Virus record (IMG/VR): IMGVR_UViG_2778261085_000008
Span: 1 to 16,525 of that record
Strand: one strand, 5' to 3'
Length of the DNA stretch: 16,525 nucleotides
Origin: a virus
Lineage: Duplodnaviria; Heunggongvirae; Uroviricota; Caudoviricetes
This document shows, piece by piece, positions 6,001-9,000 of the stretch (the first letter of the stretch is position 1; every line of letters starts with the position of its first letter). The position numbers were made by a program.

Positions 6001-9000
6001 GAGGAAGTAGAGAACGCTGATATCAACCAACGTCTACTGGAAGTCATTGAACAGATCGGGAGTTACTCAAAGCAGATTCGTTCGGCAATCGAAGATGGGC
6101 TAGTGGAGCCACATGAACAGACAGCAATTAATGATGAGTTGTATCTGTCGATTTCGAAGCTCCAGGAACATGCGGCGCTGGTCTACAAAATTTTCTGCGC
6201 TCCAGAAAAGAGTGACGCCCGCGAGTGTGCAGCTCCGGGCGTCGTGGCGTTTTGTGTCCGTGGAGAAACTAACGCATGAACAGTTTAACGGCAAATAACC
6301 GTTTGTCGCAACAGTTGGTGGTCAGCGTCGCTGAACACCTGTTGTTACGGCATGAATGCAGATTACCAAATCACCTGGCTGTAAGTAACCACAGAGAACT
6401 TTACCTGACTGTGGGGGGCGAGTTGTGCAGGAACTTAACCGCTGGTTTCGTGACGGAAGAGGACTTTATGTTCATGTTATTCGTTGGGAGCCAGAAACAC
6501 AGCGCGTTATCTATCTTCGCAAAGACTACCCGCATGAGTGCTTTAGTCCTTTGTGGAAATTCAGGCGTGATTTTGTTGAGTGTGAAGGACCACCAGCACA
6601 TTGATTCTGCCATTCCGGGACGTTACACTGTTCAGGCACCTTATAAAGCGGGTGTCGGGATTGGCGTCCTGGAATTGCATACGGCGACAATTGGCGCGTT
6701 AGCGTCTTTTTTGTTGCTACAACTCAGCTATACCCAAATTATGGTGGGCTGGGTGGGGGCACCGAAAGGTGCGCCGGTTTCCGTATGCGCCGGTTACGCC
6801 AACCCTGCTCAGTTCACCACCAGCGAAATTGGCGTTTCCGGTGGTGGAAGTTATCCATTGCATACGGAGGCTGCCATCATGGCTACTGTCCCAGCCCTCT
6901 CTCGTCTGAATGATGAAGACTTACATAAACTCAGTTATGTAACAACTGCACTACGTGATCTGCGCAAGGTAACTCTTTCGGATCCGCAGGCGCATGAAGT
7001 TCTGGTAGAAACCCTTCTTAACTTGCAGGCTGAACGTATTCGTCTGGCGGATAAGGCTAATTTTCATATTCACCGTCTCCTGAATATCAGCGGAGGGCAT
7101 CGTCATGCTTAATCCGTTGATCCTCAATATTTGCCGTTTTCTTCAGCGTAAAAAAACATCAATTCCTACAGTTGGGCAGTGGTACACCACACCTGCAGGG
7201 CATGTTCTACGTGTTAGCTTGGTTGACCGTGAAATTCCGGGAGGTTACACTGTTCAGGCACCTTATAAAGCGGGTGCCGGGCGTGGAAACCCGGAATTCA
7301 CCAAAGCGCACAACCGCGCTCTTGCGGTTTTTTTGTGTCATGAGCAGCATTACGCCCAAATTATGGTGGGGCGTGCAGGGCCAACTTCGGTTGGGCCGGG
7401 TTCTTTGGTGACCGGTATTTCCACCCCTGTACGTCTCACCACCAATAAGGTCGTGGAAAGCCTTGGTGGTGAGTTATTAAAAATCACCAAAGAGGCTGCC
7501 ATCATGGCTACGATCCCAACCCTCACTCAACCTGAAATTGCCATCGTTGATGGTCAGGCTGTTACTTCATCCCTAGCTGTTGCCAACTTCTTCTCCAAAC
7601 GTCATGACGATGTACTGAAAAAGATCCGCACGCTTGAATGTTCCGCATCATTCACTGCCCGCAATTTTTCGGTGAGTGATTACACCGATTGCACAGGCCG
7701 CAAACTACCTTGCTATCAAATAACCCGCGACGGCTTTGCGTTTCTTGCTATGGGTTTCACGGGGAAACGTGCTGCCCAGTTCAAAGAGGCATACATCAAT
7801 GCCTTTAACCAGATGGAAAAGCAGCTTTCAAGGCCATCCACGCTGAGCGATGCCGCACATAACGCCAGCGTGCTTTACTCCCACTTGTCGGTAATCCACA
7901 AAGTCTGGCTGCAGCAGCTTTATCCCATGTTGGCAAAAGCCGAATCCCCGCTGGCTATAAGTCTGTATGACCGCATCAACGACGCGGCGGTACTGGCCAG
8001 TCTCATAAATCTGTCACTGAACCCTTCAGAGGTAAGGGGGGGCAAATGATCCGGAATATTTTCAAACGGTTTACCAATCAGACTTTCCGTTGTCCTCGTC
8101 CGGGCCAGTGGTACACCACACCTGCAGGGCATGTTCTACGTGTTAGCCTGGTTGACCGTGAATGTCAGAAAGTGATTTGTGAACCGTTGGGCCGTAATTA
8201 CCGCGTCAGTATGCCGCTTATAGCCTTTCGCTCCGGAAAAAACATGAAGCATCTCGGAGGTGCAGCATGAGTATGGAGCTGATGGTTAAAGCGATGAAAA
8301 TTCGAGTGGGTAATCCATTGCGAAAACTGGTTCTGATCAAGCTGGCTGATAATGCCAGCGATCAGGGTGAGTGCTGGCCCAGCTACCAGCATATTGCTGA
8401 CCAGTGCGAGATTAGCAAACGTTCTGTGATGAATCATATTGCGGCCCTTTGTGAGTCCGGGCTGGTAAAAAAAGTCACCCGGAAAGGTGAAAAAGGTAAC
8501 TCAAGTAATATCTATCTCCTTCATCTGGATGGTGCAGGAGATTCACCAGGGGGTAGTGCAAATAATTCACTATCTGGTGCAGCAAATTCACCAGGTAGTG
8601 CAGGAGTTGCACCAGGGGGTAGTGCAGGAGATTCACCCAGAACCAGTCACTCTTTTGAACCAGTCAATGAACCAGTCAATGAACCAATAGCTGTTGGTGC
8701 ATCAGTTGATGAGTCCGTGCGAGTTCGTTCAAACCGACCGGAATACTCTCCGGAGTTTGAGCAGGCATGGCTGGCATATCCCAAACGTGCTGGTGGCAAT
8801 TCAAAATCTGCAGCCTTCAAAGCCTGGAAAGCCCGTTTGAATGAGGGGGTAAACCCCGAAACCATGCTGGAAGGTGTGAAACGCTACGCGGGCTGGGTAT
8901 CTGCGATGGGTAACAGCGGCACACAATTTGTGAAACAGGCTGTCACGTTCTTTGGTCCGGATCGTCATTTCGAAGAATCCTGGGAAGTTCCTGCGGTATC

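What the first reader, a model, noticed from the sequence alone, without database searches (positions are those of the whole stretch)
7174..8162. Near-identical 60-bp direct repeats bracket the leader-B + rha module
C1 (7174-7233) and C2 (8102-8162) differ at only 1-2 positions while surrounding DNA is much more diverged, and both encode GQWYTTPAGHVLRVSLVDRE in frame. This suggests recent gene conversion or module insertion by homologous recombination; the repeats could also mediate deletion or duplication of rha.
Basis: seen in the sequence. Interest (0 to 1): 0.5.

Follow-up and report, generated by a model that had tools for sequence, protein, structure and literature searches.

The report
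Recombination scar joining two antirepressor cassettes
The 60-bp repeat is the leftover piece of a small, highly conserved phage gene, cut off where two related E. coli prophages were joined by an irregular crossover that stacked two separately controlled RNA-regulated cassettes; it is a real but ordinary by-product of phage mosaicism.

Summary
The repeat is real: 7174-7233 and 8103-8162 match at 58 of 60 bases, and both read GQWYTTPAGHVLRVSLVDRE in frame.

It is part of a 74-aa gene, X (8046-8270, phrog_1153, function unknown). The upstream copy is the end of an X fragment (7105-7233) cut after base 129.

The "leaders" are known RNA genes: isrK plus C4 antisense RNA (Rfam hits above threshold, twice). 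The window holds two tandem cassettes, isrK-C4-orfA and isrK-C4-rha. Their C4 loops and targets differ: GCATACGG versus TCACCAAAG.

- **Single-cassette relatives:** Ayreon/SfV-type phages carry cassette A only and mEp460-type phages carry cassette B only. All 160 single-cassette relatives have one copy of the repeat core.
- **Why the copies are alike:** this X segment is about 97% identical between independent phages, so the similarity is background conservation, not gene conversion.
- **The junction:** the join at 7233|7234 has no homology. The left side matches type-2 phages and the right side matches a type-1 phage (L056, 99.2%). This fits one illegitimate crossover between two phages.
- **Promoter:** the join makes TTGACC-17-TACACT, restoring a -35 box for cassette B.
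- **Not an artefact:** the same junction occurs in at least 10 independent E. coli assemblies.

A 929-bp deletion between the repeats is plausible but was not observed.

The parts
5728..6279 (+). ymfL (CII/CP76-like regulator), upstream context of the cassette array
   Evidence: NCBIfam NF041471 E 1e-49; Pfam Phage_CP76
6425..6604 (+). 59-aa DUF4222 gene (GTG start). Its TGA stop lies inside the native -35 box of cassette A.
   Evidence: Pfam PF13973 E 9.5e-14; phrog_1343; annotated as a DUF4222 protein in RefSeq relatives
6601..6629 (+). Native promoter-like site of cassette A: TTGATT, 17 nt, TACACT. It ends 6 nt before isrK model position 1.
   Evidence: Read from the sequence. Conserved at the internal junctions of other arrays. 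8/12 match, below the scan threshold.
6636..6712 (+). isrK-like RNA A, with the upstream C4 target GCATACGG (6677-6684) and an intrinsic terminator (6693-6712)
   Evidence: Rfam RF01394, 58.9 bits against a gathering score of 50; terminator; target
6737..6824 (+). C4 antisense RNA A, loop TTTCCGTATGCG
   Evidence: Rfam RF01695, 80.7 bits against a gathering score of 45, E 8e-15; loop and target complementarity
6860..6868 (+). Target of C4-A (GCATACGGA), overlapping the Shine-Dalgarno sequence of orfA
   Evidence: read from the sequence
6879..7112 (+). orfA, the 77-aa payload of cassette A, function unknown
   Evidence: phrog_4908/3960; always followed by X allele 2 in 80/80 loci
7105..7233 (+). 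Truncated X gene (allele 2, codons 1-43), fused in frame to the leader-B reading frame and to rha (ORF 7105-8049, 314 aa)
   Evidence: Collinear with Ayreon X up to 7233; translation
7174..7233 (+). Repeat copy C1: the conserved core of X up to the breakpoint
7233..7234 (.). Illegitimate recombination joint: X base 129 joined to the spacer of the cassette-B promoter, with no microhomology
   Evidence: Identity to L056 changes from 94.8% to 99.2% here.
7223..7251 (+). Hybrid promoter-like site of cassette B: the -35 box TTGACC is supplied by X coding sequence, then 17 nt, then the native -10 box TACACT
   Evidence: The only sigma-70-like hit in 6200-8400. It is the only one of 215 possible breakpoints in X that gives a 5/6 or better -35 match.
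7258..7334 (+). isrK-like RNA B, with the upstream C4 target TCACCAAAG (7298-7306) and an intrinsic terminator (7312-7336)
   Evidence: Rfam RF01394, 67 bits against a gathering score of 50
7359..7446 (+). C4 antisense RNA B, loop GTTCTTTGGTGA
   Evidence: Rfam RF01695, 83.6 bits, E 1.5e-15
7484..7493 (+). Target of C4-B (TCACCAAAGA), overlapping the Shine-Dalgarno sequence of rha
   Evidence: read from the sequence
7504..8049 (+). rha, a Rha-family regulator or antirepressor-like protein, the payload of cassette B
   Evidence: Pfam PF09669 E 5e-31; TIGR02681; PHROG anti-repressor families
8046..8270 (+). Intact X gene (allele 1, 74 aa, function unknown). Its start overlaps the rha stop and its stop overlaps the start of the O-like gene.
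   Evidence: phrog_1153 E 1e-45; the exact protein occurs on at least 1000 contigs; no Pfam hit
8103..8162 (+). Repeat copy C2: the same core inside the intact X gene
8267..9085 (+). O-like replication initiator (HTH_36/DnaD_N) with internal iteron-like repeats; downstream context
   Evidence: repeat family D1

Best explanation
The 60-bp repeat is a recombination scar.

**Normal layout.** The window is the early-right region of a lambdoid E. coli prophage. Related phages carry one cassette between a DUF4222 gene and a small gene, X. The cassette runs: promoter, isrK-like RNA with terminator, C4 antisense RNA, C4 target at the ribosome-binding site, payload.

**The event.** Here two such phages were joined by a single illegitimate (non-homologous) crossover.
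- The left parent was of the Ayreon/SfV type (cassette A, orfA, X allele 2). It contributes everything up to base 129 of its X gene (7233).
- The right parent was of the mEp460/L056 type (cassette B, rha, X allele 1). It contributes everything from 11 nt downstream of the start of its cassette promoter's -35 box (7234) onwards, including an intact X.

**Why a 60-bp repeat results.** X consists of a variable N-terminal part, always linked to the upstream payload, and a part that is about 97% conserved in all phages. So the only sequence present twice is the conserved stretch between the allele boundary (7174/8103) and the breakpoint (7233/8162).

**Function of the product (inferred).**
- Both cassettes should work and be independent, because each C4 loop matches only its own two targets.
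- The truncated X supplies a TTGACC -35 box at the native 17-bp spacing, so cassette B keeps its own promoter.
- By analogy with P1/P7 c4-icd-ant and Gifsy-1 isrK-orf45-anrP, each C4/IsrK RNA gates translation of its payload.

**Status of the steps.** Shown: the anatomy, the parentage, the population conservation and the presence in many assemblies. Inferred: promoter activity, RNA regulation, antirepressor function, and the ability of the repeats to mediate a 929-bp deletion.
For: - **Cassette identity.** Rfam finds isrK and C4 twice, all above their gathering scores.
- **Relation to single-cassette phages.** Ayreon equals the window minus 929 bp and mEp460 equals the window minus 622 bp. The alignments end exactly at 7233 and 7234. 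There is no shared base at the joint.
- **Population survey.** In 160 IMG/VR loci, X allele 1 always follows rha (80/80) and allele 2 always follows orfA (80/80). Every locus has exactly one core copy.
- **Background conservation.** Core identity between allele classes averages 96.6%, the same as within classes.
- **Parentage.**
  - L056 matches 7234-9579 at 99.2% but 4638-6659 at only 94.8%.
  - L056 shares the window's variants at 8165, 8171 and 8187, which the closest one-cassette type-2 genome lacks.
  - The exact C1 allele, including its T at repeat position 46, occurs in a single-copy type-2 phage, L152.
- **Real, inherited junction.** Ten carriers from independent assemblies have identical C1, C2 and 929-bp spacing. 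Their cI/cro/ymfL flanks differ.
- **Promoter.** TTGACC-17-TACACT is the only sigma-70-like hit in 6200-8400. The observed breakpoint is the only one of 215 in X that gives a 5/6 or better -35 match.
- **RNA pairing.** Nine C4 loop types each have matching targets upstream and at the ribosome-binding site.
- **Precedent.** Other arrays of 2-3 cassettes exist with a different junction.
Against: - No read-level or long-read data were available, so neither the physical structure in one cell nor any heterogeneity was checked directly.
- Carriers were retrieved by exact match to the 314-aa fusion protein. This biases the set towards invariance of the block.
- The promoter argument is post hoc, and the transcription start is inferred only from the Rfam isrK model boundary.
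- A two-step history (duplication, then replacement of one cassette) would leave almost the same sequence. It is disfavoured only by parsimony and by one variant (T at repeat position 46).
- The parents are inferred from the closest available relatives, not from demonstrated ancestors.
Confidence: 0.8

Rival explanations
1. Two-step origin. First, a tandem duplication of one cassette arose within a single phage through an illegitimate joint between X and the promoter. Later, the left copy (leader, payload, X N-terminus) was replaced by homologous recombination with a phage of the other type, with one crossover inside the 60-bp core.
For: Leaders, payloads and X alleles do reassort in the population: C4A-like and C4B-like leaders are each found with both rha and orfA. 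Other arrays appear to have grown by homologous unequal crossover, since L094 has two identical internal junctions.
Against: It needs two events where one suffices. The T at C1 position 46 is seen only in a type-2 allele (L152), which suggests that the whole of C1 came from the type-2 parent. No intermediate (rha-X fragment-leader-rha with this junction) was found: the junction has 0 hits in IMG/VR and JGI metagenomes, none covering at least 80% of the query in complete E. coli genomes, and only chance hits in unrelated taxa among GTDB representatives.
Confidence: 0.12
2. One reading: the two copies were recently homogenised by gene conversion, or the module was inserted by homologous recombination at the repeats.
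For: 58/60 identity next to unalignable flanks.
Against: Independent single-copy phages show the same level of identity over this segment, and the 111 nt beyond it are equally conserved. The two differences between C1 and C2 are allele-typical: GGG occurs with allele 2, GGT or GGC with allele 1. The left joint has no homology.
Confidence: 0.04
3. Assembly artefact: two prophages of one strain were collapsed or chimerically joined through the shared 60 bp.
For: The window is a short draft contig (16.5 kb, GCA_002486915.1). The junction is absent from 5426 complete E. coli genomes.
Against: The same junction and the exact 314-aa fusion ORF occur in at least 10 contigs from independent NCBI and ENA assemblies, up to 416 kb long, with different flanking alleles. 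A repeat-induced misjoin would swap flanks at the repeat. It would not create the non-homologous joint at 7233|7234.
Confidence: 0.02
4. The cassette is a dedicated mobile element (integron-like or homing) that inserts site-specifically into X, and the repeat is its target duplication.
For: Cassettes occur in arrays of 2-3 in other phages, and both known junction types fall in X.
Against: There is no recombinase, transposase or terminal inverted repeat at the cassette ends. Sixty base pairs is far longer than a target-site duplication. The two junction types differ on both sides: X codon 43 versus about codon 3, and the promoter spacer versus 20 nt upstream of it. Viability selection (intact payload, intact promoter) is enough to explain why the breakpoints fall where they do.
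Confidence: 0.02

Closest known systems
Phage P1/P7 immI region (c4 antisense RNA, icd, ant), Rfam RF01695 and c4-a1b1 RF03163
   Same: The C4 covariance model is matched end to end, twice. The loop sequence is complementary to one site upstream and one at the ribosome-binding site of the downstream gene. Specificity varies between phages with matching changes in loop and targets, which is the P1/P7 heteroimmunity principle (own knowledge: Citron and Schuster 1990; Heinrich et al. 1995). The payload is antirepressor-like.
   Different: The cassettes sit in the early-right operon of a lambdoid prophage between ymfL/DUF4222 and the replication genes, not in a P1 plasmid prophage. The payloads are a Rha-family protein and an unknown 77-aa protein rather than Icd/Ant. 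Two heterospecific cassettes lie in tandem. The c4-a1b1 model scores below its threshold (22.6 and 20.4 bits against 46.7).
Gifsy-1 isrK-orf45-anrP locus of Salmonella (PMC4825925), Rfam RF01394
   Same: isrK model hits above the gathering score, each with an intrinsic terminator, are followed by a reading frame across the C4 region and an antirepressor-like gene. In Gifsy-1 the isrK promoter drives the downstream antirepressor gene, and translation is gated by RNA structure.
   Different: Here the reading frame across the leader has no stop before the payload start codon, so it is fused in frame. No AntQ-type gene is adjacent. Regulation has not been tested here.
Single-cassette lambdoid phages SfV, Ayreon, mEp460, ST64B, cdtI and Stx2a phages
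   Same: Same gene order and 85-99% DNA identity. These represent the two parental architectures.
   Different: They carry one cassette and one copy of the 60-bp core. The window carries both cassettes and a truncated extra X.
Mosaic module boundaries in lambdoid phages (modular evolution; own knowledge: Botstein 1980; Juhala et al. 2000)
   Same: There is a sharp switch from unalignable alleles to about 97% identical sequence inside a gene, at the same position in all phages. Flanking modules are exchanged among carriers.
   Different: The novel joint here is not at such a boundary. It is a non-homologous join inside the conserved part.

Membership tests
C4 antisense RNA (Rfam RF01695) | Sequence and structure match to the covariance model above the gathering score | tested here: met
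   83.6 and 80.7 bits against a gathering score of 45, full-length matches 1-87
C4 antisense RNA (Rfam RF01695) | Loop complementary to targets upstream (a1/b1) and at the ribosome-binding site of the controlled gene (a2/b2) | tested here: met
   8-10 nt perfect complements in both places for both cassettes, and for 9 loop types across 160 loci. Only the second-hairpin loop (b-type) was examined.
C4 antisense RNA (Rfam RF01695) | Processed from the leader transcript and acting as a repressor of the downstream gene | not testable with these tools
   Needs RNA mapping and reporter assays
isrK (Rfam RF01394) | Covariance model match above the gathering score, ending in an intrinsic terminator | tested here: met
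   67 and 58.9 bits against a gathering score of 50; terminator-like hairpins with T runs at 6693-6712 and 7312-7336
isrK (Rfam RF01394) | Own promoter immediately upstream that drives the downstream antirepressor gene | tested here: inconclusive
   Consensus-like sites sit at the expected distance (TTGATT/TACACT and TTGACC/TACACT). Activity was not measured.
Rha family regulator (Pfam PF09669 / TIGR02681) | Rha domain above the curated cut-off | tested here: met
   107.5 bits against a cut-off of 29.9; 102.9 bits against 45.95
DUF4222 (Pfam PF13973), considered for gene X | HMM match | tested here: not met
   X has no Pfam hit even at E up to 1. The DUF4222 gene is the separate ORF 6425-6604. 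BLASTP of X against it gives only E 0.02.
Gene-conversion tract between paralogous copies | Copies within the genome are more alike than the same segment is between independent genomes | tested here: not met
   C1/C2 are 96.7% identical. Independent phages are 96.6% identical on average (93-100%).
Target-site duplication of a transposable element | Short duplication flanking an element that has terminal repeats and a transposase or recombinase | tested here: not met
   The repeat is 60 bp. There are no inverted repeats at the ends and no transposase or recombinase between the repeats.
Unequal/illegitimate crossover product (tandem array) | Each side of a single novel joint is collinear with a different one-copy parent, and there is no homology at the joint | tested here: met

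The most novel reading that the evidence does not exclude
isrK-C4 cassettes may be stackable, mutually orthogonal RNA-gated antirepressor modules. At least nine loop/target specificities circulate in E. coli lambdoid prophages, and arrays of two or three mostly heterospecific cassettes arise repeatedly by illegitimate recombination. Survivors would be filtered for an intact payload and a working promoter; in this window a -35 box is captured from coding sequence. Such arrays would let one prophage carry several independently silenced induction switches, or respond to the C4 RNAs of several co-resident prophages. The leader also appears to be kept as an open reading frame (the so-called Ash domain), so it may be both RNA and coding sequence.
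Probability: 0.3. Interest if true: 0.55.

Novelty: new member of a known kind. Interest (0 to 1): 0.27.

Why it matters
The repeat itself is an ordinary footprint of phage mosaic evolution, so it should not be pursued as a new element or as a gene-conversion hotspot.

The context is more useful.
- The "leaders" are known regulatory RNAs that genome annotation currently reads as an "Ash" protein domain fused to Rha.
- The cassettes exist in many specificities with matched loop and target changes.
- This lineage carries two independent cassettes joined at a point that recreates a promoter.

This gives a clean natural case for testing orthogonality of C4-type RNA immunity and promoter capture at recombination joints. 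It also offers a simple PCR assay (929-bp deletion between 42-bp identities) for instability in prophage regulatory regions.

Tried and rejected
- **Junction searches.**
  - An 80-nt junction query against 5426 complete E. coli genomes found no place covering at least 80% of the query.
  - A 19-mer scan of IMG/VR gave 0 hits.
  - A 30-mer scan of JGI metagenomes gave 0 hits.
  - The 19-mer scan of GTDB representatives gave 19 hits, all in unrelated taxa such as Paenibacillus and Planctomycetes. I treat these as chance matches. The 19-mer was too short for that collection.
- **My own error on X.** I first assumed by eye that X is a DUF4222 protein. This was wrong: Pfam gives no hit for X. The RefSeq "DUF4222" label belongs to ORF 6425-6604.
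- **L031.** An apparent 37-nt deletion upstream of leader A in L031 is a run of N in a scaffold, not a variant.
- **Gene-call differences among carriers** (278-aa ORF versus 59-aa plus 192-aa ORFs) reflect gene calling, not sequence differences.
- **Microhomology at the joint.** TTGA...TG is shared between the native and hybrid -35 regions, but a crossover there would give a different product. I rejected it as the crossover site.
- **Exact deletion product.** The best one-copy genome is 99.4% identical and differs on both sides of the core. No deletion derivative of this haplotype was identified.
- **Other members of the fusion protein's 90% cluster** all have the ordinary N-terminus, so no second X-leader fusion was found.
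Full report
**1. The observation**

The repeat finder reports a two-copy direct repeat of 60 nt at 7174-7233 and 8103-8162, with 58/60 identity and 929 bp start to start.

The two differences are synonymous: GGG/GGC at position 3 and TTG/CTG at position 46. The longest uninterrupted identity is 42 bp. Both copies encode GQWYTTPAGHVLRVSLVDRE in the frames of ORF 7105-8049 and ORF 8046-8270.

**2. What the surrounding sequence is**

The window is contig NNXD01000075.1 of assembly GCA_002486915.1. Proteins identical to its ORFs are named as Escherichia coli proteins by the sources. It is the early-right region of a lambdoid prophage, in this order:

| Feature | Coordinates |
|---|---|
| S24 repressor | 4719-5393, minus strand |
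| cro-like gene | 5379-5684 |
| ymfL (CII-like) | 5728-6279 |
| 59-aa DUF4222 gene | 6425-6604 |
| two "leader + gene" units | 6612-8049 |
| small gene X | 8046-8270 |
| O-like replication gene | 8267-9085 |

Rfam finds isrK at 6636-6712 and 7258-7334 (58.9 and 67 bits; gathering score 50). It finds C4 antisense RNA at 6737-6824 and 7359-7446 (80.7 and 83.6 bits; gathering score 45), all full-length. Each isrK ends in a terminator-like hairpin with a T run.

Each C4 second-hairpin loop is complementary to one site in its own isrK region and one site over the Shine-Dalgarno sequence of its own payload:
- Cassette A: loop TTTCCGTATGCG, targets GCATACGG at 6677-6684 and GCATACGGA at 6860-6868, payload orfA (ATG 6879).
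- Cassette B: loop GTTCTTTGGTGA, targets TCACCAAAG at 7298-7306 and TCACCAAAGA at 7484-7493, payload rha (ATG 7504).

Neither loop matches the other cassette's targets. Across 160 related loci there are nine loop types, each with its own complementary targets. This is strong covariation support for the antisense pairing.

The payload of cassette B is a Rha-family protein (Pfam 5e-31) related to PHROG anti-repressor families. The payload of cassette A is an unknown 77-aa protein.

**3. What the repeat is**

Gene X is a 74-aa ORF of unknown function: phrog_1153, no Pfam hit. It is very common, with the exact protein on at least 1000 contigs.

C2 lies inside the intact X. C1 is the end of a truncated X copy (7105-7233, 43 codons) that runs directly into leader B.

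Comparison with annotated phages shows two one-cassette architectures:
- Ayreon/SfV type: DUF4222, cassette A, orfA, X, O. This equals the window minus 929 bp.
- mEp460 type: DUF4222, cassette B, rha, X, O. This equals the window minus 622 bp.

The alignments stop exactly at 7233 and 7234. At the joint the two parental sequences share no base: X reads ...CGTGAA|TGTC and the parental leader context reads ...TCTGCC|ATTCC.

**4. Why the copies are so alike and the flanks are not**

I analysed 160 single-cassette loci from IMG/VR.
- The N-terminal allele MIRNIF... always follows rha (80/80), and MLNPLIL... always follows orfA (80/80). So the first ~20 codons of X travel with the upstream payload, and the left edge of the repeat is a population-wide allele boundary.
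- From that boundary onwards X is conserved in all phages. The 57-nt core is 96.6% identical on average between the two allele classes (93-100%), the same as within classes. The next 111 nt are 97.2% identical.

C1/C2 at 96.7% is therefore the background level, and no recent gene conversion is needed. The difference at position 3 is allele-typical: GGG with allele 2, GGT or GGC with allele 1. The T at position 46 of C1 is also present in a single-copy allele-2 phage, L152. The right edge of the repeat is simply the breakpoint.

**5. Origin**

Identity to the type-1 phage L056 is 99.2% over 7234-9579 but 94.8% over 4638-6659. L056 shares the window's X variants at 8165, 8171 and 8187. The closest one-cassette type-2 genome (E. 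coli A39, 99.4%) lacks them. Cassette A, orfA and the X fragment are 99.4% identical to the type-2 loci L140 and L117.

The simplest history is one illegitimate crossover between a type-2 and a type-1 phage. It joined X base 129 of the first to the promoter spacer of the cassette in the second. A two-step history (duplication, then replacement of one cassette) cannot be excluded, but it needs more events and no intermediate was found.

**6. It is real and inherited**

The exact 314-aa ORF that spans the joint is found in 25 blocks of the assembly index. Ten contigs from independent NCBI and ENA assemblies, up to 416 kb long, were read.

All ten have identical C1, identical C2 and 929-bp spacing. 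The block from about 6200 to 9000 differs by at most a few bases, while the cI/cro/ymfL flank differs:
- Some carriers have dozens of substitutions in the flank.
- L031 carries an entirely different repressor and cro pair.

So this is a single, fairly young haplotype that has already moved between immunity backgrounds. A misassembly through the 60-bp repeat could not create the non-homologous joint.

The junction is rare:
- No place covers at least 80% of the junction query in 5426 complete E. coli genomes.
- It has no hits in IMG/VR or JGI metagenomes.
- Hits among GTDB representatives are only chance matches in unrelated taxa.

**7. The joint rebuilds a promoter**

Upstream of each isrK start (model position 1 at 6636 and 7258) lies TACACT, 6 nt away. 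In native contexts TTGATT lies 17 bp further up. In Gifsy-1 the isrK promoter drives the downstream antirepressor gene (PMC4825925).

The breakpoint falls in the spacer and removes the native -35 box. The X coding sequence supplies TTGACC at exactly the same spacing.
- This is the only sigma-70-like site the scan reports in 6200-8400.
- Of 215 possible breakpoints in X, the observed one is the only one that gives a 5/6 or better -35 match; 8 of 215 give 4/6 or better.

I infer that survival of this recombinant was helped by retention of a cassette-B promoter. This reasoning is post hoc and untested.

The joint also keeps the X fragment in frame with the stop-free frame across leader B and with rha.

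**8. Other arrays**

Five of the 160 IMG/VR loci carry more than one cassette. I examined four in detail: L069 and L092 carry two cassettes, and L094 and L097 carry three.

Their internal junction is different. About three codons of X are followed by the last ~20 nt of the native upstream sequence, with TTGATT retained. L094 has two identical internal junctions, suggesting later expansion by homologous unequal crossover.

Neighbouring cassettes mostly differ in specificity. Stacking of these cassettes therefore recurs. The breakpoints fall where payload and promoter both survive, which argues for selection on random joints rather than a dedicated insertion mechanism.

**9. Consequences of the repeat**

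Recombination between C1 and C2 would delete 929 bp (cassette B and rha) and regenerate an ordinary type-2 phage with a hybrid X. The 42-bp identity is long enough in principle for RecA or phage recombinases (own knowledge).

One-cassette forms without rha are common: 413 of 5426 complete genomes. They are the standard architecture, and none is an exact derivative of this haplotype. Deletion is plausible but unobserved.

**10. Comparison with known systems and verdict**

The cassettes are members of the C4 and isrK RNA families by the Rfam tests. They work, by inference, like P1/P7 c4-icd-ant and Gifsy-1 isrK-orf45-anrP (P1 literature from my own knowledge).

The repeat is not a gene-conversion tract, a target-site duplication or a mobile-element end; each of these was tested and not met. 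It is a scar of illegitimate recombination in a mosaic prophage. Its only unusual features are the tandem pairing of two heterospecific cassettes and the apparent capture of a -35 box.

Interest is low to moderate. In novelty it is a new member (arrangement) of a known kind.

Noticed in passing
window 6612-6881 and 7234-7506: Pfam 'Ash protein family' (PF10554) matches the translation of exactly the isrK + C4 RNA region. RefSeq therefore names these ORFs 'ash family protein' or long 'Rha family' proteins, and a 2022 Stx-phage paper treats Ash as a protein domain of unknown function (PMC8951638). Yet this frame is stop-free, with a length that is a multiple of 3, in 30 of 31 distinct leaders, while the other frames have stops. 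In Gifsy-1 the equivalent orf45 was SPA-tagged for Western analysis and its translation is required for anrP activation. The leader may be both structured RNA and coding sequence.
   Followed up: partly
L032-L191 (IMG/VR loci) and window: At least nine different C4 loop sequences circulate in these E. coli phages. Each has perfectly complementary 8-10 nt targets in its isrK region and at the payload ribosome-binding site. Leaders and payloads reassort: both leader types occur with both rha and orfA.
   Followed up: partly
L069, L092, L094, L097: Other lambdoid phages carry two or three tandem isrK-C4-rha cassettes. Their internal junction differs from the window's, and it is repeated identically within L094 and L097.
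   Followed up: partly
window 6276-6611: Two overlapping reading frames lie upstream of leader A. One is a long frame-0 ORF starting at 6276 (ATGA overlap with ymfL) that runs on through the leader. The other is a GTG-started 59-aa DUF4222 ORF (6425-6604) in another frame. Which of them is expressed is unclear. The DUF4222 stop codon lies inside the -35 box TTGATT.
   Followed up: partly
L031 (ENA ERZ28595196 scaffold_1203): The same tandem block, nearly identical, sits next to a completely different repressor/cro pair (HTH_3 + S24, 215 aa) and a different late regulator. This shows exchange of the immunity module around the block.
   Followed up: partly
window 8532-8660: Four iteron-like direct repeats (GTGCAGGAG(A/T)T(T/G)CACCAGG...) lie inside the O-like replication gene, as expected for a lambdoid origin. 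They encode a repetitive Gly/Ser/Ala/Pro linker.
   Followed up: no
window 15116-15270 and 15789-15858: Two adjacent tRNA genes, Met (CAT) and Arg (TCT), lie downstream of the Q antiterminator region. A third weak tRNA-like hit (28.7 bits against 29) was not called by ARAGORN.
   Followed up: no
window 14736-14821: An inverted repeat with 24-nt arms, 92% complementary and 38 nt apart. It attracts spurious microRNA model hits. It lies between the Rce1-like ORF (13300-14118) and the tRNAs and may be a late-operon terminator or regulatory hairpin.
   Followed up: no
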